Assembly: GCA_036744855.1 (NCBI GenBank)
Contig: DAIOHF010000014.1
Location: forward strand, 45,287-109,286
Reading direction: 5' to 3'
Source of the DNA: Sedimentisphaerales bacterium
GTDB taxonomy: Bacteria > Planctomycetota > Phycisphaerae > Sedimentisphaerales > Anaerobacaceae
DNA: 64,000 nucleotides
How positions within the stretch are numbered: position 1 is the first letter of the stretch; each line of letters starts with the position of its first letter. Under the pieces are notes generated by a model. That model made no database searches and was not told where the DNA came from. It saw only the letters and a list, made by a program, of their open reading frames with translations. This document shows, piece by piece, positions 4,422-50,595 of this stretch. A program made the position numbers and the translations under genes.

Positions 4422-4593
4422 TATACGGATTCGGATTGATGCGTGCGCGGGTCTTGTCATCCTGAACGCAGCGCAGCGAAGTGAAGGATCTGGCTCGCGA
4501 ACGAGAGAGACCTCTCGTCGTGTGCCCAGGTCCTTCGGCTGTGCCTCAGGACGACAAATCCTCGCCGCGCACGAATCACTCCGAATCCGTATT
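4422..4593. repeat. About 170-bp nested palindromic element (outer arms TATACGGATTCGGATTGATGCGTGCG, inner GTCATCCTGAACG...CCTCAGGACGAC module)
   Basis: Outer arms 4422-4447 and 4568-4593 are near reverse complements. The inner module at 4456-4555 belongs to the same family as 24524-24632. The right arm overlaps the stop codon of the GH28-like gene. Confidence 0.7.
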
Positions 4594-6001
4594 AGTCGCG
4601 GCGGACTCGCGTGACATCCTTCAGCATCAGGGGATTCGCCACTCCCTCGTATCGGGGGAATCGGACGGTGTCGAGCGTCAGATCGTTCACGTCCTCGCAG
4701 ATCATCACCGGCCGCAGGTCGGGCTTCTTGCAGGTCAGGCGGACGTCCTCCAGCGTGAGCCGCTCGACGTTGCGGGCGTAGAAGCCCCAGGCGGGAAGCG
4801 GTCGAGCGTCCACGCCGGGAGACTTGACCTCGCGCGCGACCGCGTCGGCGGCCCCGCCGCCTTCGAACTCGATGTCCACGTCGCGAAAGACCACGTCCTT
4901 GAATGGAGTCTCCGCCCAGCTTTCGACCGAGCAGGCGGCGCGATAGACGCCGGTCGCTGAGGCCCGCGTGACGGTGATCCGCCCCGCGGTGTTGCCCGGC
5001 TTCATCATGAAGTGGAACGGCGTCGTCACGTTCGTCATTGCGACGTCGCTGATGAACACGTCGTCGAGTTCGCCCTTGGTCGCGTCCCACGCCCCCGGCT
5101 GGAGGTTGATGCCCGCCAGCATGTTGTAGCGGTTCGACGTGCGGTGCGGGTGGAGCCCTGGGCCGTAGAACAGGCAGTCGCGGATGATCAGGCGTTTGGC
5201 CGGACCGATCAGGCGGATGCCGTTGCAGGCGGAATTGATGATGCAATCGGAGATGACCGTGTCCTCCCAGTACCGGCCGGCGATGCAGTCGTCGCCCGTG
5301 TAGAACCGGCAGTTGGTGATGCTCACGTCCCGGCACGGACGCTCCGGGGCCCCGCGCCAGTGGACGCCGTCCCAGCCGCCGGTGAACTTGACGTTGCGAA
5401 TGTCTACGTGGTCGCTGATCTGAAAGAAGATCGCGTAGTTGGCGGAGTCCACGAACGACACGTCGCGGACCGTCACGTTCTTGCAGTTGACGAACACGAA
5501 CGTGTGCGGCCCGCGCATCCGCTCTTCGCCCCGAGGGTCGAAGACCTTGTTGCCGTCGATGACGCCCCCGCCGGCGATGCCGATATCCTCCAGCCCCTCG
5601 CCGAGGATCAAGGCCCGATGCCACCTGCCCCACCTCGCCTCCGGCATGAAGTCCGGCACCCTCGGCTGCTGGTACGAATTCGGGTCCGGCGCCCCGACCA
5701 GCACAGCCCCGGGCTCCAGCAGCAGCGTCACACGGCTCTTCAGATGCACGGTAGCCGAAAGATACCGCCCAGGCCCAAACCGCACCTGTCCGCCCCCGGC
5801 CTGGGCGCAAGCCTCCACCGCCTTGTTGATCGCGACAGTATCGAGCGTCTTGCCATCCCCCGCCGCCCCATACTCGCGAACATCGAACACCCCCGCCCCA
5901 GCCGCGATAGCGACACGCGACGCAATGAGCACCGTCGCCACAACGCCCAGCCAACCGCCCATCGAAGAATGCCTCTGGGTCTTCCCGTTTGCTCGAATCA
6001 T
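4592..6001 (-). CDS. Secreted right-handed beta-helix glycoside hydrolase (GH28 / pectate-lyase-fold family)
   Basis: Signal-like N-terminus. FDVREYGAAGDGKTLDTxAINKAVEAC...GGGQVxFPxGxYL start typical of this fold. Repeated beta-helix turns (NCKNVTVRDV, VDIRNVKF, VSITNCRF, VISDCII). Confidence 0.7.
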   Translation of the reverse strand: MIRANGKTQRHSSMGGWLGVVATVLIASRVAIAAGAGVFDVREYGAAGDGKTLDTVAINKAVEACAQAGGGQVRFGPGRYLSATVHLKSRVTLLLEPGAVLVGAPDPNSYQQPRVPDFMPEARWGRWHRALILGEGLEDIGIAGGGVIDGNKVFDPRGEERMRGPHTFVFVNCKNVTVRDVSFVDSANYAIFFQISDHVDIRNVKFTGGWDGVHWRGAPERPCRDVSITNCRFYTGDDCIAGRYWEDTVISDCIINSACNGIRLIGPAKRLIIRDCLFYGPGLHPHRTSNRYNMLAGINLQPGAWDATKGELDDVFISDVAMTNVTTPFHFMMKPGNTAGRITVTRASATGVYRAACSVESWAETPFKDVVFRDVDIEFEGGGAADAVAREVKSPGVDARPLPAWGFYARNVERLTLEDVRLTCKKPDLRPVMICEDVNDLTLDTVRFPRYEGVANPLMLKDVTRVRRD

Positions 6002-6092
6002 AAGATGATCTCCCAGGACAACAGCCCCACAAGCGGCTTAACCACGTTCGGTCTTCAGCAAGTCCGATTCGAACGGCTGGTCAACAAGTACT

Positions 6093-6503
6093 TCACACAC
6101 CCATTGATAGGAACAAGCACTCCAGGGTACAAAAGTTCACACAAGTACAAAGAGAGCCTATCAACATAACCCTGGACATACGCCCATGTCTTCTCCAGAA
6201 CAACAGGAGTGTTGTTGTAGCCATTGCTCCGGACAATGACCAAACAAGTGGCCGTTCAATCGTTCTCAGAGGCTGCGCAAGCACAGAATTCATCATCCAT
6301 CCAATGATTGGTGGAGAAGTAACAAGACCTAGCACCCAGTACACAGGGATAGCCAGCATGAGAGATGCGATTGAAGACACATTGCCAAATTGGTCTCGAG
6401 CATAGCTGTAACACACCGGAGAAAAACGAATGTATGTGACTCCCAGCAACAGGTTCATAAGAAACAATATTGCCGCAATAGCCAGCACTTTCCTCATTTG
6501 CAT
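6093..6503 (-). CDS. Hypothetical small membrane protein (low-GC islet)
   Basis: ORF with about 4 hydrophobic segments, starting MQMRKVLAIAAILFLMNLLLG. The region is clearly more AT-rich than its surroundings. I recognise no family. Confidence 0.3.
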   Translation of the reverse strand: MQMRKVLAIAAILFLMNLLLGVTYIRFSPVCYSYARDQFGNVSSIASLMLAIPVYWVLGLVTSPPIIGWMMNSVLAQPLRTIERPLVWSLSGAMATTTLLLFWRRHGRMSRVMLIGSLCTCVNFCTLECLFLSMGV

Positions 6504-6616
6504 CGCCAACGAAAGCCCACCATCGCCGCGGCAAGGCTCTTCACACCCTTGCCGTCCGGTTAAGGACATGGGTGTCGGTCCTTATGTTTCTTGACGCCCT
6601 TATGACCGAGAAGCTC

Positions 6617-6787
6617 CTAGACGGTACTGATATCATACCCGCTTTTCAGGATTTGTGTGGTGAAGAAATGCGGGAATCGAAAGGTCTTCCTCAAGCGACC
6701 CAAAAGCCGAAGGCTATTCGGAAACACCTCCTCGACTCGCCCGGAGTCTGTCACCGCCGCATTGCCTTGACTGCCTGCCGCCTGCAT
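6617..6787 (-). CDS. Possible 56-aa ORF using the repeat-borne RBS and ATG
   Basis: Its RBS (AAGGGGA) and start codon lie inside the 236-bp repeat and are identical to those of the GNAT gene at 8785. The downstream sequence is unrelated and unrecognised. Confidence 0.2.
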   Translation of the reverse strand: MQAAGSQGNAAVTDSGRVEEVFPNSLRLLGRLRKTFRFPHFFTTQILKSGYDISTV

Positions 6788-7016
6788 CGAGTTCCCCTTC
6801 ACACGTGACCGGGATTCTAGTCCATTCCTGCGGCAGGGTCAATACGAACGACGGAGAATCTCGCGGCGATTGCACGTGACCGCGGCTGCAAGGTGTCGAG
6901 GGCGTCCCGCCCTCGAATCGCGGGCAAGATGCCCGCGACACGGGAGTCGTCCAACGATTGGCGACGCCACACGCAATTGCCCTGCGAGGAATCTCGGGGG
7001 GGTGCCTGGGTGTCTG
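6781..7016. repeat. Copy A of a ~236-bp composite repeat (REP hairpins plus outward RBS/start codon)
   Basis: Near-identical to 8779-9016 by direct reading. Contains hairpins GAGGGCGTCCCGCCCTC (6898-6914) and GCGGGCAAGATGCCCGC (6920-6936). Confidence 0.85.
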
Positions 7017-7319
7017 TGCAGAGTCCCAGGCATGGGAAGTCCCGTGGACGGCACGCCCGAGACGGTCGTGCGAGGGACATTTTGCCGCTTTGCACCAATG
7101 GCATGAAACGATGATTCGTGGCCCGTGACTCGTGATCCGGGCCACCGGTCACGGGTCACCAGCCACGCGTGCGAAGCACGCCCATCATGCTGCTGGCCCA
7201 ATGCGGAGAATGACCGCCGCCCCGCCGCGAAACGCCGCTGCGCGTCACGGCGGCGGAATCCGGATCGGTCCGTCGCTTCCTTGAGCGGACCGTTATCGCG
7301 GACACGCGATTGGCAGGCA

Positions 7320-7928
7320 TCAGGGCTCCTTTGCCTGTTTGCTGACTCCCCGGCCCTCGCACCGCGCGAGGGCCTCGCTCATCGCGTGAACGAGCTTGTC
7401 GGACACAGCCGCCGAGTATCCAAGCGCGCGAGCCTTGCGAAAGGCTTCCTCAGCGGAGGCGACTTCCCCGCGCACCTGGAGAATCACGCCGAGATTGTGC
7501 CATGGGAGCGGAGCCTGCGCGTCGTGTTCCATCGCAGCCCGCAGGTGGTCCTCCGCGGCGTCGAGTTCCCCCAGGCGCATGCGAGCCGCACCGAGGTTCG
7601 TTTGCGTCATCACTGCGATGTCACGCGTGTAGATCCCCCAACTCAGCCAGATCAGCTTTTTCAGCCACGGCCTGGCCGCAAGTTGTTTAAGGAAGCGCGT
7701 GAAGCACGTGATCGATTCGGCTGCTCGATCTTCCGCAAGCAGCCGACGGCCCCGGAAGAAGTCGCGCCAGAAGTAGCCCTGAACCCGTCCGGGAACCAGG
7801 AAGACGCCGGCGGCAAGAACAAGCGTCATGGGATGAACATCGGTCGACAACACGACGATCGCCACTCCGGCACAGAGAGATGAGATCAAGGCTGCGTAGA
7901 AGACCTTGTATCGCGATGTTCTGTTCAT
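7320..7928 (-). CDS. Membrane-anchored TPR-like protein
   Basis: Two N-terminal hydrophobic helices, then TPR-like helical repeats (NLGAARMRLGELDAAEDHLRAAMEHD...WHNLGVILQVRGEVASAEEAFRKA). The ATG overlaps the upstream stop codon (ATGA at 7925-7928). Confidence 0.55.
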   Translation of the reverse strand: MNRTSRYKVFYAALISSLCAGVAIVVLSTDVHPMTLVLAAGVFLVPGRVQGYFWRDFFRGRRLLAEDRAAESITCFTRFLKQLAARPWLKKLIWLSWGIYTRDIAVMTQTNLGAARMRLGELDAAEDHLRAAMEHDAQAPLPWHNLGVILQVRGEVASAEEAFRKARALGYSAAVSDKLVHAMSEALARCEGRGVSKQAKEP

Positions 7929-8785
7929 TGTTCCGTCCCGATGTCTAACGTGAGGGATGAACCGCTCCGGCGAGAACGCCGTCCGCTACGGCCTTGCCGC
8001 AGTTGTGTTCGATCCGGTTGTTCTGCATTCTCACGCATGATGTTCATGAATCTCGTCGCGCTGACCGGACGGTCCGCGATCAGCTTTCCATTGCAGACGA
8101 TGCTGAACATGCCATAGGGCGTCGGAAGCTCCCTTGACGCCTCGGCGCTCGTGACGGGAACCACCTTCGGCTTCAACCCCAGGGCTCGGGCCGCCTGCGA
8201 AATCTCCTGGACCCACTTGGGAACCATCGGGCATTGATCGGCAGCCAGGATCGTCAGGCCCTTCTTGTACTTTCCCGGCAATCGCTCCCTTTGGACGATG
8301 AAACGAGGATCGGGGGCTGCTTTCTTCAGCTTCTTGACGAGCAGTTCATAAGGACCGATGCGGTCCACCGAGACGAAACCCGCTTTGAGGAAGAAGCCGC
8401 TGCCTGCCATGAAGCTGTCCTCGCTGGTCACGACCGCGACCCCTCGGCACTTGCTCTCCTTCGCGTCGCCCAGGCAACTATCCAGAAGGAGGACGCCGAG
8501 CCCTTTGCCCTTGTGCCTGCTGTTGACCATCAGGCAATGGATGACAAGATAACCCTCCGCCTCCACCGGTCTCCAGGCATGGTTGCCCAGGGCATACTCG
8601 ATCATCCCGATATCGCCGAATTCACGCGAGCGGAGCACCTTGAACCTCAAGCCTTCCGCGTAGCGTTCCTTGAGCCAACCAACCTTCCGGCGATGCCCCT
8701 CGCTTCTCCCGGCTTTGTAGCCACAGAAGCCGCAGTCGCTGATATTCCCGGCGTTCGTGTCGATGATCTCGTATTCGCCCTGCAT
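7925..8785 (-). CDS. GNAT-family N-acetyltransferase with YoaP-like C-terminal domain
   Basis: LVIHCLMVNSRHKGKGLGVLLLDSCL...GVAVVTS...GFFLKAGF resembles a GNAT acetyl-CoA site. The C-terminal half (QCPMVPKW...TPYGMFSIVCNGKLI) resembles the YoaP-like domain. I prefer the ATG at 8785 (MQGEYEII). Confidence 0.6.
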   Translation of the reverse strand: MQGEYEIIDTNAGNISDCGFCGYKAGRSEGHRRKVGWLKERYAEGLRFKVLRSREFGDIGMIEYALGNHAWRPVEAEGYLVIHCLMVNSRHKGKGLGVLLLDSCLGDAKESKCRGVAVVTSEDSFMAGSGFFLKAGFVSVDRIGPYELLVKKLKKAAPDPRFIVQRERLPGKYKKGLTILAADQCPMVPKWVQEISQAARALGLKPKVVPVTSAEASRELPTPYGMFSIVCNGKLIADRPVSATRFMNIMRENAEQPDRTQLRQGRSGRRSRRSGSSLTLDIGTEQ

Positions 8786-9016
8786 CGAATTCCCCTTCAC
8801 ACGTGACCGGGATTCTAATCCACTCCCGTTGGAGGGTCAATGCGGGCGACGGCGAATCTCGCGGCGATTGCACGTGACCGCGGCTGCAACGTGTCGAGGG
8901 CGTCCCGCCCTCGAATCGCGGGCAAGATGCCCGCGACACGGGAGTCGTCCAACGATTGGCGACGCCACACGCAATTGACCTGCGAGGAATCTGGGGGCGG
9001 GGGCCTGGGTGTCTTC
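8779..9016. repeat. Copy B of the ~236-bp composite repeat
   Basis: Near-identical to 6781-7016. Hairpins at 8896-8912 and 8918-8934. It ends at the start codon of the GNAT gene. Confidence 0.85.
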
Positions 9017-9274
9017 GCAGCGTGCGTTTGGCGCGTTGCGGATACCCGCGGGGAGAGAGGGAAAGGCCCGACACGAAACGCGGACCATCCACCAGTGAAG
9101 AGAGGCTCTTCTCGCAGCGCTTCACCTAATCCGTCTCACGCTTCACGAGACCCGCTTCACGCCTCTGCCCCTCTCCGCTGGTATCCCCAAAGCGATAAAC
9201 GCACCCCTCGAATCCGGCGGGACGCCCCGACTCCGAGGAAACCGCAAGAACGGCCGCACGCCTCGATTTGGGGC

Positions 9275-9303
9275 TTGATAGCCCGGCCAGCTTGGACTAT
9301 AGT
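9275..9303 (+). promoter_or_regulatory. Sigma-70-like promoter upstream of the galK-pyrK-pyrD unit
   Basis: TTGATA, 17-nt spacer, TATAGT, located 55 nt upstream of the ATG at 9358. Confidence 0.5.
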
Positions 9304-9357
9304 CAGCGCCGTTGTGACGGTGCGTGCGACGGATGAACCTTTTGTGCAGAGGTCGGG

Positions 9358-10674
9358 ATGGAGTTGGCAAGGGAAGACCAGGCAGCGGTGGAGAAGCTCC
9401 GCCAGTTGGCGAAGGAGAACCAGATCGACATTGCCGGCGGCAAGCTGCGGCGGACTTCGTCGCGGTTCTGCCTGGGCGTCGAGCACGGCGACTACAACGG
9501 CACCGAACTCTTCGGCGTCGGGACCGACCGCTTCATCTGGATGGCCTACAAGCCCAACGGCACCAAGAAAGTCCGGCTCTTCAGCGGCAACTTCCCCGCC
9601 GACGGCGTCGTCGAGTACACGATCGGCAACGTCCCTGCCCCCAAGTCCGCGGCCATCGCCGACACCTGGGGCCGATTCCCCTACGGCATCGACTACATCC
9701 TGAAGCGCGAGGGCTTCCAACTCAAACAAGGCATCGACGCGGTCCTCTTCGGCAACATCCCCGGCGGCGGCATGAGCCGCTCGGCCTCGCTGTGCATCAA
9801 TCTGATCCTCTCGCTCTTCGACGCCAATGGCGTGGAGGTTCCAAGTTTGAAGTGTCAAGTTTCAAGTGCGGAGGACGCAACCTCCAAGCTTCAAACTTCA
9901 AACTTCAAACTTCAAACTCCTATGCAGATCGTCGATCTCGCCCAGGCGGTCGAGAACGACTACATCGGCTCCCCCTGCGGCAAGCTGGATCAGACGATGG
10001 TCCTGTTCGCCAAGGAAGGCATGGGAACCTACTACAACCCCCAGGACCGCTCGATCGAGTACGTGCCGATCGGCAAAGGGGCCATCGATTTCCGCATCGT
10101 GGTCCTCGACACCGGCACCGACCGGCCGGGCCTGGAGAAGGCGACCTACGCCGTGCGGCGAAGGCAGTGCGAGGAACTGGTCGGCATCCTTCAGAAGGCC
10201 GGCTACAAGATCACCTGCCTGGCCGACGTCAAAGACGAGGCGATGTACAAGAAGATCCTGGACCAGTTCGGCCGCAGCCACGCGGACCTCTGCGACCGAC
10301 TCAATTACATCTACCATGCTCAGCAGCGGTTCTATCAGATGATGGACGCCTGGCGATCCGGCGACGTCGAAAAGGTCGGCGCGATCTTCCGCCAGGACGG
10401 ACTGGGTCTGCGCGACGACTACAAGATCTCCGGGCCGGAACTTGAAACGATGTGCGACGTCGTCCGCACGGTCCCCGGCGTCCTCGGCGAACGCATGCTC
10501 GGCGGCGGCGACAAAGGCGCCTCCGGCGCGCTGGTCCGGGCCGAGAGCGTCGAAGCGGTCAAGCAGGCGGTCGACGCCGCGTATCCGCGAAGCCGGCCCG
10601 CTTTCGCGAACAAATACGCCGCCCACGTCTGTAAAGTGGTGGATGGCGTTCGACTGTATGAGGGCGTCCTTTGA
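9358..10674 (+). CDS. galK: Galactokinase-like GHMP kinase carrying an in-frame palindromic insert
   Basis: GHMP motif GNIPGGGMSRSASLCINLIL and GalK-like AVENDYIGSPCGKLDQ. C-terminal GGGDKGASGALV. A ~25-codon low-complexity insert lies between the two motifs. Confidence 0.75.
   Translation: MELAREDQAAVEKLRQLAKENQIDIAGGKLRRTSSRFCLGVEHGDYNGTELFGVGTDRFIWMAYKPNGTKKVRLFSGNFPADGVVEYTIGNVPAPKSAAIADTWGRFPYGIDYILKREGFQLKQGIDAVLFGNIPGGGMSRSASLCINLILSLFDANGVEVPSLKCQVSSAEDATSKLQTSNFKLQTPMQIVDLAQAVENDYIGSPCGKLDQTMVLFAKEGMGTYYNPQDRSIEYVPIGKGAIDFRIVVLDTGTDRPGLEKATYAVRRRQCEELVGILQKAGYKITCLADVKDEAMYKKILDQFGRSHADLCDRLNYIYHAQQRFYQMMDAWRSGDVEKVGAIFRQDGLGLRDDYKISGPELETMCDVVRTVPGVLGERMLGGGDKGASGALVRAESVEAVKQAVDAAYPRSRPAFANKYAAHVCKVVDGVRLYEGVL
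9842..9918. repeat. About 77-bp imperfect palindrome (TTCAAACTT-periodic arms, GGAGG-ACGCAA-CCTCC centre) inside galK
   Basis: CAAGTTTGAAGTGTCAAGTTTCAAGTGCGGAGG / CCTCCAAGCTTCAAACTTCAAACTTCAAACT read directly. AT-rich relative to the gene. Translated as SLKCQVSSAEDATSKLQTSNFKLQT. Confidence 0.75.
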
Positions 10675-14315: not shown

Positions 14316-14969
14316 TTATGCGATTTGTGTCACTTCGATTCCATTGTCACTGAGTATCTGCAACCAAGTCTGGAAAACACTTTCACAGAGACCAGCAGCG
14401 TTGCCCAGTGAGTTGCCATCTTTGTCGGTAATGGTACACGAAAACGTCCATGTAAAGTCGGTGAACTGGAATTTGAGTTCGCCCACCGAAGCGGATCCGA
14501 CGAATTCAAATTCCGGGATCGATTCGCCCCACATGATTAAGGTCGGTTTCAGGCGATGCGGAAAGCTGTGCATGACCCCGTGAACGTACGGTTTGCCGTA
14601 TCGAGGTTCGAGGTCGACGGCCCAACGCTGCGAATTATCGGTGCCCGCATGCTTGTATTCGTTTGCGAGATAGCTGACGACTTGGACGTCGCGGGATTGG
14701 GTGATGTAAGTATTGACAATCCGTCCCGGCTCAGTTTCGCCGTTTTCTTCCAGAATCTTTTTCACATAGTCGCGGCAGTGCCAAGTGTACTGCATCAACA
14801 CCTTGCAGCGCTGGGAGACTTTGTCGGCTGGCCTCAAAGGCCGAATTTGATATCCGCGCGAACCATCGTCGTGCTGAATGGGCTCGATCAACTGCGAGAA
14901 TTCAGCGAGGTCGGCGGCGGCGATCTTTCGGTCCGCGAGGAAGTTTGTGAAGGCTACGAGCTTCGACAT
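14316..14969 (-). CDS. Hypothetical protein (orphan, low-GC islet)
   Basis: Clean 217-aa ORF from the ATG at 14969 (GAAAGG lies 7 nt upstream). The composition is AT-richer than the flanks. I recognise no domain. Confidence 0.45.
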
Positions 14970-15311
14970 GCGAGACCTTTCATCGCATAACAATAATTAG
15001 ATGGACCCGCACAAGATGCGGGAATGTCCGTTTCGGTCCGCATAAGCAACCTTTGGATTTCTTGCCAAAAACGCCAGAAGATGTGCTCCTTCAAGGACTT
15101 GCTGTCGGTCCGCACTCTTATCCGGGAATGCTATACGGATCCGCATAGGAACCTCCAAATCAAAGCCCGTCCGGCGGCTGTAATGCCTGGACCGCAATGG
15201 CTCCCGCAACCGATCCCGGCGTGTAAGCACACCTGCTGGAGGGGTTTCAATGGCGGCTTGTGGGGCAACCGTCTGCACCGCCGGGGCTCCGCTCAGACCC
15301 GCCGAGGCGGC

Positions 15312-49512: not shown

Positions 49513-50595
49513 TCACGCATGACCGTTGTTTCCGATGGACGTTTCGGGGGCGTAGCTGTCCTGCGTCATGTTCTCGCGAGGATGGGCGTTGTCGTAGACT
49601 TCCTTGAGCTTCTTCGTCGTCAGGTGCGTGTACACCTGGGTCGTCGAGAGCGACTGGTGCCCGAGCAGTTCCTGCACGCTCCGCAGATCCGCGCCGTTGT
49701 TGAGCATATGAGTCGCGAAGCTGTGCCGCAGCGTGTGCGGGCTGATCGCAGGGTCCAGCCCCGCCGTCTTGAGGTACTTGTCCATCTTCCGGCGGACGCT
49801 TCGCGTGCTCAGACGCTGTCCGTGCTTGTTGACGAACAGGACCTTGGAATCGAAGTGGCTGTTGCTCTGTGACCGCCGATTCCGGTATTCCATGTAGTGC
49901 TGGATCGCCTGCAGGGCCGACGAGCTGATCGGCGTGATCCGCTCCTTCTTGCCCTTGCCGCGGATGTGAATGACTTCGCCCAGGAAGTCGATATCGTCCA
50001 TGTTCAGCCCGACCAACTCGCTGACGCGGATGCCAGTACTATAAAGGGTCTCGAGAATGGCCCGGTCCCTGGCGCCCAGCCAGGAGTCGGTCGAGGGGGT
50101 TTCGAGGAGCCGTTTGACCTCTTCGAACTCCAGGAAGCGAGGGAGCTTCTTCTCCTGCTTGGGAGTGCGGATCGCGGTGAGCGGGTTGGAGTCCCGGCGG
50201 CCCGTCTTGACCACGAACTTGTAGAAGCTCCGCAGCGTCGCCAGCTTGCGGGCGATCGTCGCCTTGGAGTAACCCTTCTCGTTCAGATAGGCCAGGTAAG
50301 TCCTCGCCTCGTCCACGTCCACGGCCAGCAGTCGCTGGTCCACTTCCTGCTCAGTCTGCGTGGCGACCGCGGTGGCGACGCCGCCCTCGTGGTGCCCCAG
50401 GGGAGCCAGATCCGAAGAGGAGCCATCCGATGGGGTGTTCAGCAGGAACTCGGAGAACTGCGACAGGTCGGCGCCGTAGCACTTTGCCGTGTGTTCCGAG
50501 AACCGCTTCTCGAACTTGAGATAATGCAGGAATTGTTCAACGATCGCGCTGCTTTCGTCCATAGTCCACCTGTTTATCTGATCCATCGGCATCAT
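49513..50595 (-). CDS. xerC: Tyrosine site-specific recombinase, XerC/XerD family
   Basis: ARDRAILETLYSTGIRVSELVGL, HTLRHSFATHML and LLGHQSLSTTQVYTHL motifs. I cannot distinguish XerC from XerD by eye. Confidence 0.85.
   Translation of the reverse strand: MMPMDQINRWTMDESSAIVEQFLHYLKFEKRFSEHTAKCYGADLSQFSEFLLNTPSDGSSSDLAPLGHHEGGVATAVATQTEQEVDQRLLAVDVDEARTYLAYLNEKGYSKATIARKLATLRSFYKFVVKTGRRDSNPLTAIRTPKQEKKLPRFLEFEEVKRLLETPSTDSWLGARDRAILETLYSTGIRVSELVGLNMDDIDFLGEVIHIRGKGKKERITPISSSALQAIQHYMEYRNRRSQSNSHFDSKVLFVNKHGQRLSTRSVRRKMDKYLKTAGLDPAISPHTLRHSFATHMLNNGADLRSVQELLGHQSLSTTQVYTHLTTKKLKEVYDNAHPRENMTQDSYAPETSIGNNGHA

What the first reader, a model, noticed from the sequence alone, without database searches (positions are those of the whole stretch)
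6781..9016. A ~236-bp composite repeat supplies an identical leader, RBS and start codon to two unrelated genes
Seen in the sequence:
- 6781-7016 and 8779-9016 are near-identical direct repeats.
- On the minus strand each ends in ...CACGTGTGAAGGGGAAYTCGATGCAG.
- The GNAT/YoaP gene (start 8785) and a small ORF (start 6787, leading into a low-GC membrane-protein gene) therefore share the SD-like AAGGGGA, the ATG and the first codons (MQ; MKGNSMQ if the upstream GTG is used). They diverge immediately afterwards.
- The repeat also contains two REP hairpins and two CACGTGAC boxes.

Inference: this is either a mobile or recombinogenic leader cassette with outward-facing expression signals, or a common regulatory 5' UTR that couples two accessory operons.
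Basis: partly seen in the sequence, partly recalled or inferred. Interest (0 to 1): 0.6.

Follow-up and report, generated by a model that had tools for sequence, protein, structure and literature searches.

The report
Duplicated promoter of a dead integron
The 236-bp repeat is the promoter, ribosome-binding site and start codon of a long-dead integron integrase gene, present twice inside a gene-cassette island. One copy has been joined by a deletion to an acetyltransferase cassette, so the shared "leader" comes from integron decay, although it probably still drives the neighbouring cassette genes.

Summary
Windows 6781-7016 and 8779-9016 are direct repeats (93% identical, sharp ends), and they are the only two full copies in the 7.3-Mb genome.

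The repeat has three layers:
- **Proximal part (about 85 nt, minus strand):** TTGACC-17-TAGAAT, GGTCACGTGTGA, the Shine-Dalgarno sequence GAAGGGGA and ATGCAGG. This is the native promoter, leader and start codon (Pint) of an integron integrase gene (intI). It sits at a syntenic, hypervariable galK-GH28 locus in one Sedimentisphaerales genus.
- **Middle part (120 nt):** a palindromic REP/MITE-like insertion. It supplies both hairpins and the second CACGTGAC box.
- **Outer part (about 35 nt):** older upstream DNA.

The "small ORF" after copy 1 is the intI pseudogene. The GNAT/YoaP gene is a genuine integron cassette: it has an attC site, and homology between genomes stops exactly at G|TT. In relatives its native start is M(N/R)EYE. 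In this genome and one other, a deletion joined it to the intI start codon.

The repeat is therefore not a dispersed mobile leader. It is a duplicated platform of a decayed chromosomal integron in which intI points towards the cassettes. The leader is 92% conserved where neutral sites are 65%, so it probably still acts as the cassette promoter.

I rate this moderately interesting and file it as a new member of a known kind.

The parts
8779..9016 (-). Repeat copy R2. It continues directly into the galK-proximal DNA, as in relatives. Its ATGCAGG is fused to codon 2 of the GNAT cassette gene.
6781..7016 (-). Repeat copy R1, which precedes the intI pseudogene. It carries the native junction ATGCAGGCGGCAG, as in relatives.
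8812..8840 (-). Predicted Pint promoter of R2: -35 TTGACC (8835-8840), 17-nt spacer, -10 TAGAAT (8812-8817).
   Evidence: both hexamers conserved in 27 copies
6814..6842 (-). Predicted Pint promoter of R1: -35 TTGACC (6837-6842), 17-nt spacer, -10 TAGAAT (6814-6819).
8779..8808 (-). Leader of R2: box A GGTCACGTGTGA (8797-8808), SD GAAGGGGA (8791-8798), ATGCAGG (8779-8785).
   Evidence: nearly invariant in relatives
6781..6810 (-). Leader of R1: box A (6799-6810), SD (6793-6800), ATGCAGG (6781-6787).
6865..6984 (.). 120-nt palindromic REP/MITE-like insertion in R1. Its ends are inverted-repeat-like (GCGATTGCACGTG ... CACACGCAATTGCC). It contains the REP hairpin doublet 6896-6938 and box B.
   Evidence: Absent from most relatives' leaders. 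Present at the same site in the opposite orientation in G021; L094's leader has the same GCAATTGCC junction there.
8863..8982 (.). The same 120-nt REP/MITE-like insertion in R2, 98.3% identical to the R1 copy.
7925..8785 (-). GNAT/YoaP acetyltransferase cassette gene. It is read from the borrowed intI start (MQGEYEII...), and its stop overlaps the TPR ATG (ATGA).
7943..8026 (-). attC of the GNAT cassette: R'' GCAGAAC 8020-8026, L'' 8007-8015, L' 7955-7962, R' G|TTAGAC 7943-7949.
   Evidence: Homology among five genomes stops at G|TT. The consensus hairpin has an extrahelical base and 2 compensatory pairs.
7320..7928 (-). TPR membrane-protein gene, the next cassette. It starts 15 nt after G|TTAGAC.
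7004..7320 (.). Spacer made of dispersed repeats, with 20-28 partial copies in this genome. The same family sits upstream of the leader in several relatives.
6500..6787 (-). intI pseudogene. The N-terminus MQAAGSQGNAAVTDSGRVE... is fused by an internal deletion to the C-terminal part ...HFFTTQILKSGYDISTV*ELLGHK..THVLNR.
   Evidence: tblastn E = 1e-5; 85.8% nt identity to L092
6093..6503 (-). Low-GC orphan membrane-protein gene, the last cassette of the array. No Pfam match.
6068..6074 (-). GTTCGAA, the core site at the end of the array. Beyond it lies conserved chromosomal DNA leading to GH28.
14985..15260 (-). Second, separate integron platform remnant. It holds intI N-terminal codons, the intI stop, and an attI-like region with core ATCTAATTATTGTTATGC (14985-15001).

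Best explanation
The window holds a decayed sedentary chromosomal integron of the "inverted" type, in which intI is transcribed towards its cassettes: Pint, then intI, then attI, then cassettes. It lies between galK and a GH28 gene in a genus of Sedimentisphaerales (Planctomycetota).

The repeat is the integrase promoter region. It comprises the -35 and -10 hexamers, a roughly 20-nt 5' UTR with a Shine-Dalgarno sequence, and the intI start codon. A REP/MITE-like element is inserted about 25 nt upstream of the -35 hexamer.

The platform is present twice in tandem. This state is also seen in several relatives.

- **Downstream copy (R1).** The integrase has been reduced to a pseudogene. The promoter now reads through about 280 nt of remnant into a low-GC membrane-protein cassette.
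- **galK-proximal copy (R2).** A deletion removed the integrase remnant and the first codon of the GNAT/YoaP cassette. This joined ATGCAGG of intI in frame to GNAT codon 2. GNAT, and the translationally coupled TPR gene, now use Pint, its Shine-Dalgarno sequence and its ATG.

**Shown here:**
- the homology of the leader and the small ORF to intI
- the cassette nature of GNAT
- the native GNAT start in relatives
- the composite make-up of the repeat.

**Inferred:**
- that the promoter is active
- that it serves as the cassette promoter
- the order of the duplication and deletion events.
For: **The leader belongs to intI.**
- In at least 9 other genomes of the genus and 13 metagenome contigs, the same leader precedes ORFs starting MQAAV. 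These are integron-integrase remnants.
- Contigs L092 and L094 keep the full N-terminus, M(R/Q)AAVSQGD...LLDRLREALRSRHYS.RTEETYCHWVKRF.
- An intact IntI of the genus scores 481 bits against TIGR02249, whose cut-off is 265.
- That protein matches window 6685-6590 (E = 1e-5).
- Intact paralogues have the same leader layout: -10 hexamer, 11-16 nt, G(T/C)GAAGGAGA, 5 nt, ATG.

**The locus is syntenic and hypervariable.** It lies between GH28 and galK in every genome examined.

**Integron features are present.**
- An attI-like region lies downstream of intI, ending in GTCTAATTATTGTTAGGC.
- The GNAT attC is followed by TPR, an ankyrin gene or other DNA in different genomes. Homology stops at G|TT in each case.
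- The cassette's own 5' end, G|TTCTGC, is the exact complement of R'' GCAGAAC.
- The end of the array is also a G|TT junction.

**GNAT acquired the leader secondarily.**
- The native start is ATGAGAGAGTAC or ATGAACGAGTAT with unrelated upstream DNA in G019, G021 and the close relative Ga0228535_1000042.
- The fused form ATGCAGG(G/A)CGAATAC occurs only in this genome and G012.

**The promoter looks constrained.**
- The only sigma-70-like hits on the minus strand are the two copies.
- Across 11 distant genome pairs the 78-nt leader is 92% identical, while four-fold sites of the adjacent galK are 65% identical.
- intI is broken in every copy at this locus.

**Integron literature.**
- Integrons with intI co-directional with the cassettes are a described group (PMC4889954).
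- Planctomycete chromosomal attC sites are known (PMC8352920).
Against:
- **No attI after R1's pseudogene.** TPR also has no recognisable attC, so part of the array is degenerate.
- **attC and attI calls were made by eye and by alignment.** IntegronFinder's covariance model was not available. The single-sequence fold of the attC was not better than shuffles (z = -1.5).
- **The first 90 nt of the dead integrase are also 89% conserved,** and the substitutions do not look protein-constrained. Something other than a plain promoter, or recent exchange between species, may explain the conservation.
- **The history is not resolved.** The close relative (95-97% identical in the flanks) has the unfused state, while the more distant G012 shares the fusion. 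This implies recombination between lineages or parallel events.
Confidence: 0.75

Rival explanations
1. The 236-bp unit is a mobile or recombinogenic leader cassette, of the MITE or IS-end type with an outward-facing promoter, that inserts in front of genes.
For: - It contains REP hairpins of a dispersed family.
- It contains a 120-nt sub-element with inverted-repeat-like ends. That sub-element occupies the same site in both orientations in different genomes.
- Junctions with foreign DNA recur within a few bases of the ATG: the GNAT fusion, the toxin-like pair in G021 flanked by a 26-bp duplication, and an unrelated ORF in L095.
Against: - Only two full copies exist in the genome, both in one island.
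- The exact 26-nt core is found only at this locus: in 8 genomes of this one lineage among 185,579 species, and in 13 metagenome contigs.
- The promoter part is native to intI.
- The 236-bp unit as a whole has no terminal inverted repeats or target duplication.
Confidence: 0.05
2. The repeats are inert scars of rearrangement. The promoter is dead or irrelevant, and the shared start codon is a neutral accident of a deletion.
For: - The locus is a rearrangement hot spot, with different deletions in every genome.
- The integrase is dead everywhere at this locus.
- There are no expression data.
Against: - The leader is 92% identical where neutral sites are 65% identical.
- The -35 and -10 hexamers, the Shine-Dalgarno sequence and the ATG are intact in 27 copies.
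- The GNAT fusion is in frame. It costs one residue change and one added residue, and leaves an intact 286-aa ORF that is kept in two species.
Confidence: 0.15
3. The chief present-day role of the two copies is as homologous-recombination substrates. They would let the 2-kb GNAT-TPR module loop out of, or re-enter, the chromosome.
For: - The copies are direct repeats of about 240 bp with a 120-nt core that is 98% identical.
- Metagenome contig L095 has a single repeat. Its outer part is of the R2 type and its promoter part of the R1 type, joined to galK with no GNAT-TPR. That is the product expected from an R2 x R1 crossover.
Against: - L095 differs downstream of the ATG, and is only 86-95% identical, so it is not a simple deletion derivative.
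- The mosaic can equally be the ancestral single copy before duplication.
- No excised or empty form was seen in the three assemblies of this population.
Confidence: 0.2
4. The shared leader is an SOS (LexA)-controlled integrase promoter, as in classical integrons. GNAT-TPR and the membrane gene would then be damage-inducible.
For: - LexA boxes overlapping Pint are widespread in integrons (PMC8876359).
- Box A (GGTCACGTGTGA) is a near-palindrome between the -10 hexamer and the Shine-Dalgarno sequence. It is nearly invariant across copies.
Against: - The candidate LexA box in lexA promoters of this genus is TGGTC-N4-(G/C)ACCA, located in the promoter spacer. Box A shares only the GGTCA half.
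- GGTCACGTGTGA occurs nowhere else in the genome.
- It is not found upstream of recA or the three lexA paralogues.
Confidence: 0.1

Closest known systems
Sedentary chromosomal integrons of the "inverted integron-integrase" group (Treponema type; Cury et al. 2016, PMC4889954)
   Same: - intI is transcribed in the same direction as the cassettes.
- The attI-like site lies downstream of intI.
- Cassettes are bounded by attC sites with G|TT junctions.
- Cargo is typical: a GNAT acetyltransferase, toxin-antitoxin-like pairs and orphan proteins.
   Different: - The integrase is a pseudogene in every genome at this locus.
- The platform is duplicated in tandem within the array.
- One cassette ORF is fused to the intI start codon.
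CALIN elements and degenerate integrons with intI pseudogenes (Cury et al. 2016)
   Same: - A cassette array without a working integrase.
- Recognisable intI remnants nearby.
   Different: - The promoter, leader and first roughly 30 codons of intI are kept at about 90% identity across species, rather than decaying.
- The array here is very short (2-3 cassettes).
Class 1 integron attI1 short ORFs (ORF-11/ORF-17) and platform-borne translation signals used by cassettes (reviewed in PMC8876359)
   Same: A ribosome-binding site and start codon belonging to the platform are used to express a cassette gene that lacks its own signals.
   Different: - Here the borrowed start is that of the integrase gene itself.
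- The link arose by deletion, not by attI x attC insertion.
- There is no experimental evidence for it here.
REP/BIME elements and their RAYT transposases
   Same: The middle 50 nt of the repeat is a doublet of GC-rich 7-bp-stem hairpins, with about 29 further copies in the genome and many more across the genus.
   Different: The hairpins are a passenger inserted upstream of the promoter. They are not part of the leader, and they do not account for the 236-bp duplication.

Membership tests
Integron (platform plus cassettes) | An intact integron integrase (tyrosine recombinase with the IntI-specific extra domain) | tested here: not met
   - The window holds only remnants, at 6500-6787 and 15168-15257.
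- The best TIGR02249 hit in the whole genome is 86 bits against a cut-off of 265.
- Intact IntI exists elsewhere in the genus: G007, 481 bits.
Integron (platform plus cassettes) | Remnant demonstrably homologous to intI | tested here: met
   - tblastn of the genus IntI gives E = 1e-5 at 6685-6590.
- The N-terminus is 85.8% identical in nucleotides to L092, whose ORF continues into ...RSRHDSHRTEETYCHWVKRF.
Integron (platform plus cassettes) | attC-bounded cassettes with the crossover at G|TT | tested here: met
   - The GNAT attC lies at 7943-8026. Homology among five genomes ends at G|TT and is followed by different genes.
- R'' GCAGAAC is the exact complement of the cassette's own 5' G|TTCTGC.
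- The consensus hairpin has an extrahelical base.
- The end of the array is also a G|TT junction.
- This was not confirmed with the IntegronFinder model.
Integron (platform plus cassettes) | attI site next to intI | tested here: inconclusive
   - A conserved region with CTTATRCGG repeats and the core GTCTAAT-N4-GTTAGGC follows intI in relatives, and in the window's second platform at 14985-15001.
- It is absent after R1's pseudogene.
- Its function is untested.
Mobile element with outward promoter (MITE or IS end) | Several dispersed copies at unrelated loci | tested here: not met
   There are two copies, 2 kb apart. Elsewhere the unit is found only at the orthologous locus.
Mobile element with outward promoter (MITE or IS end) | Terminal inverted repeats and a target duplication at the ends of the 236-bp unit | tested here: not met
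   None are present at 6781/7016 or 8779/9016. Only the inner 120-nt element has inverted-repeat-like ends.
REP/BIME | Short GC-rich palindromes in many intergenic copies | tested here: met
   About 29 further copies of the doublet occur in this genome, and hundreds across the genus.
Structured RNA leader or riboswitch | Match to a known RNA family, or a conserved transcribed structure | tested here: not met
   - No Rfam match at E <= 1.
- The predicted 5' UTR is about 20 nt.
- The hairpins lie upstream of the promoter.
LexA-repressed integrase promoter | LexA box overlapping Pint | tested here: inconclusive
   The candidate genus LexA box, TGGTC-N4-SACCA, comes from five lexA promoters. The leader shares only GGTCA with it.

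The most novel reading that the evidence does not exclude
The dead integron's 5' block (Pint, Shine-Dalgarno sequence, ATG and about 30 codons) has been domesticated as a dedicated expression module, equivalent to the cassette promoter Pc, for integrons whose integrase points towards the cassettes. This would explain three things:
- It stays about 90% conserved across species although every integrase at this locus is broken.
- It has been duplicated inside the array.
- Foreign genes are repeatedly found joined within a few bases of its start codon (GNAT, a DUF4258 toxin-like pair, an unrelated ORF).
Probability: 0.35. Interest if true: 0.55.

Novelty: new member of a known kind. Interest (0 to 1): 0.4.

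Why it matters
- **It removes an apparent oddity.** Two unrelated genes sharing an identical leader is explained by known biology: integron decay, a REP insertion and a deletion fusion.
- **It documents integrons in a new group.** These are chromosomal integrons in Sedimentisphaerales with intI oriented towards the cassettes. The searchable library holds no paper focused on integrons in this group; four papers mention both terms only in passing.
- **It gives a concrete, testable handle on an open point.** It is not known how cassettes are transcribed when intI points towards the cassettes. Here the integrase promoter outlives the integrase and is fused directly to a cassette, which suggests that Pint doubles as the cassette promoter.

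Tried and rejected
- **LexA control.** No GGTCACGTG lies upstream of recA or the three lexA paralogues. Footprinting of lexA promoters in the genus gave TGGTC-N4-SACCA, which the leader does not contain.
- **Known RNA families.** None match.
- **Single-sequence folding.** The putative attC, the spacer and the end of the array gave z-scores of -0.8 to -2.7, which are not decisive. The comparative junction analysis was what worked.
- **Core-site pattern searches in the window.** These found only the second platform.
- **An early idea, dropped.** I first thought the leader replaced the first 40 codons of intI. Metagenome copies showed that MQAAV is the true integrase start.
- **The ORF after the leader in L095.** By eye it looked like a RAYT, but it has no Pfam match, so I make no claim.
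- **Fetching more of contig Ga0228535_1000042.** A handle search failed. It was obtained through an exact-protein look-up instead.
- **An attC for the TPR cassette.** None is recognisable. Its 3' side is occupied by dispersed repeats.
- **Two fuzzy-regex scripts** timed out and were replaced by BLAST.
Full report
**1. Observation**

Windows 6781-7016 and 8779-9016 are direct repeats 1998 bp apart and 93% identical. Weaker similarity runs on to 7024/9023.

On the minus strand both copies end in GGTCACGTGTGAAGGGGAA(C/T)TCGATGCAGG, and the sequences diverge immediately afterwards. The hairpins (6896-6916 and 6918-6938, with their twins in copy 2) and two CACGTGAC boxes are present.

The genome is a 7.28-Mb assembly in 231 contigs, 98.5% complete. 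It contains only these two full copies. The other 46 matches cover only the 50-nt hairpin doublet. Three independent ENA assemblies reproduce the locus with both repeats at 99.96-100% identity (two over the full 6.5 kb, one over 4.8 kb), and a shorter Logan contig matches at 100% over copy 2, GNAT and TPR only, so the arrangement is not an assembly artefact.

**2. The repeat is a composite of three layers**

Identity between the two copies is uneven:
- 86.9% in the 84 nt next to the ATG
- 98.3% in the middle 120 nt
- 85.4% in the outer 41 nt
- Fisher p = 0.002 for proximal against middle.

The middle 120 nt (6865-6984 and 8863-8982) is a palindromic element with inverted-repeat-like ends. It carries the REP doublet and the second CACGTGAC box.

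Most relatives lack this element in the orthologous leader. It sits at the same site, in the opposite orientation, in genome G021, and L094's leader shows the same junction there. The doublet alone has about 29 further copies in this genome and many more across the genus. The hairpins and box B are therefore passengers, not parts of a leader.

**3. The promoter-proximal layer is the 5' end of an integron integrase gene**

The proximal layer reads TTGACC-17 nt-TAGAAT, then box A GGTCACGTGTGA, the Shine-Dalgarno sequence GAAGGGGA, 5 nt, and ATG. These are the only sigma-70-like matches (10 of 12 positions) on the minus strand of 6000-9400.

The same 85 nt is found at 80-90% identity in at least nine other genomes of the genus. 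It is also found in 13 metagenome contigs. In every case where flanking DNA is available, it lies between the same two genes as here: a GH28 gene (4592-6001) and a galK-like gene (9358-10674).

Record titles place these genomes in Phycisphaerae/Sedimentisphaerales, phylum Planctomycetota.

Downstream of the ATG, the relatives have short ORFs beginning MQAAV... These are integron-integrase remnants carrying different internal deletions. One example is [54 protein letters not shown].

Two metagenome copies keep the full N-terminus, M(R/Q)AAVSQGD..DSGRVE..LLDRLREALRSRHYS.RTEETYCHWVKRF. This shows that ATGCAGGCGGCAGT is the true integrase start.

An intact integrase of the genus scores 481 bits against TIGR02249, whose cut-off is 265. 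Intact paralogues have the same leader layout.

The window's "small ORF" (6787 to 6617) is this integrase. Its N-terminus MQAAGSQGNAAVTDSGRVE.. is fused to ..HFFTTQILKSGYDISTV*ELLGHK..THVLNR. The evidence is tblastn E = 1e-5 and 85.8% nucleotide identity to L092.

This genome has no intact integron integrase.

**4. The surroundings are a cassette array with intI pointing towards the cassettes**

- In relatives, the integrase stop codon is followed by a conserved region with CTTATRCGG repeats. It ends in GTCTAATTATTGTTAGGC, an attI-like simple site.
- The GNAT/YoaP gene (Pfam) ends in an attC-like element: R'' GCAGAAC, L'' GGATCGAAC, L' GTTCATCC and R' GTTAGAC.
- Five genomes were compared at this element: this one, the close relative, G019, G016 and G014. 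Homology stops exactly at G|TT. Beyond that point lie TPR, an ankyrin gene or other DNA.
- The consensus fold of the element is a long imperfect hairpin with an extrahelical base and two compensatory pairs.
- Where the cassette's own 5' end is preserved, it is G|TTCTGC, the perfect complement of R''.
- The array ends at another G|TT junction in front of conserved DNA that leads to GH28. Different genomes have different last cassettes there. In the window this junction is GTTCGAA at 6068-6074.

Integrons with intI co-directional with the cassettes are a described group (PMC4889954). Planctomycete chromosomal attC sites are known (PMC8352920).

**5. How GNAT came to share the leader**

In G019 and G021, GNAT starts ATGAGAGAGTAC (MREYE). 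In the close relative Ga0228535_1000042, whose flanks are 95-97% identical to the window, it starts ATGAACGAGTAT (MNEYE). In all three the upstream DNA is unrelated to the leader.

The close relative has the following order: galK, dispersed repeat, leader, tiny integrase remnant, |TTCTGC-GNAT, TPR, dispersed repeat, second leader, integrase remnant, attI, two more genes, GH28.

The two-platform state is therefore older than this genome. G012, G015 and G021 also have two copies.

In this genome and G012, the stretch from just after ATGCAGG to GNAT codon 2 is missing. The result is ATGCAGG(G/A)CGAATAC, read as MQ(G/D)EYE.

I infer a deletion that was retained because it places GNAT behind the integrase promoter, Shine-Dalgarno sequence and start codon. 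The TPR gene is coupled to GNAT by an ATGA overlap. The order of events is an inference.

The distribution does not follow the relatedness of the flanks: the fusion is present in G012 and absent in the closer relative. Recombination between lineages is therefore likely.

**6. Function**

Across 11 distant genome pairs, four-fold degenerate sites of the adjacent galK are 65% identical, the 78-nt leader is 92% identical, and the first 90 nt of the broken integrase are 89% identical.

The hexamers, box A, the Shine-Dalgarno sequence and the ATG are intact in 27 copies.

The simplest reading is that the promoter survives because it drives the co-directional cassettes.

Why the first 90 nt of the pseudogene are also conserved is unexplained. 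The substitutions do not look protein-constrained.

Box A is unique to the two copies in this genome. It does not match the candidate LexA box of the genus. No Rfam family matches.

**7.

- The "common regulatory 5' region coupling two units" reading is plausible in a weaker form, namely the same promoter and operator-like box in front of both units.
- One of the two "unrelated genes" is simply the leader's own dead gene.
- A possible side role of the repeats as recombination substrates is suggested by contig L095. Its single repeat combines an R2-type outer part with an R1-type promoter part. This is not decisive.

**8. Novelty**

This is a new member of a known kind: a decayed chromosomal integron with intI oriented towards the cassettes, in a group where the searchable library holds no paper focused on integrons (four incidental mentions only). 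Two rearrangement features are worth noting:
- tandem duplication of the platform
- a cassette ORF fused to the intI start codon.

The scan's earlier notes on this window had flagged the REP family and the two low-GC islets. Here those islets are read as cassettes of two integron remnants.

Noticed in passing
window 14900-15260 (minus strand), with ORF 14316-14969: A second, separate decayed integron platform. It holds integrase N-terminal codons (..RLREPLRSRHYSRRT) fused to the integrase stop, followed by an attI-like region ending in ATCTAATTATTGTTATGC (14985-15001). An orphan 217-aa ORF with no Pfam match follows, in the position of a first cassette. This platform has no copy of the 236-bp repeat.
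   Followed up: partly
window 9840-9922, inside the galK-like ORF 9358-10674: An in-frame insertion in the GHMP-kinase gene, net 72 nt, made of a palindromic repeat (FKLQTSNFKLQT..). Most relatives have 11 nt at this position. Copies of the repeat occur elsewhere in relatives' genomes.
   Followed up: partly
window 7004-7320: The spacer between TPR and repeat copy 1 is a mosaic of dispersed repeats, with 20-28 partial copies in this genome. The same family sits immediately upstream of the integrase leader in several relatives (Ga0228535_1000042, L088, L090, L091).
   Followed up: partly
L050 (G021:C42) 6287-6980: A DUF4258 toxin-like gene and a small partner gene are inserted right after the leader's ATGC. 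They are flanked by a 26-bp direct duplication of the leader (GTCACGTGTGAAGGGGAATTCGATGC).
   Followed up: partly
L095 (Ga0067045_1055039): This contig carries a single copy of the full repeat, including the REP insertion, next to galK. Its outer part is of the R2 type and its promoter part of the R1 type. After ATGCAGGTGGCAATC comes an unrelated ORF with no Pfam match, and there is no GNAT-TPR.
   Followed up: partly
lexA promoters: G000:C36 and loci L104, L106, L109, L111: A conserved imperfect palindrome, TGGTC-N4-(G/C)ACCA, lies in the spacer between the -35 and -10 hexamers of lexA in five genomes of the genus. It is a candidate LexA box for this lineage.
   Followed up: no
window 49612-50310 (minus strand): An XerC/XerD-like tyrosine recombinase gene. 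It matches the genus integron integrase at 29% identity over 268 residues and is not part of the integron.
   Followed up: no
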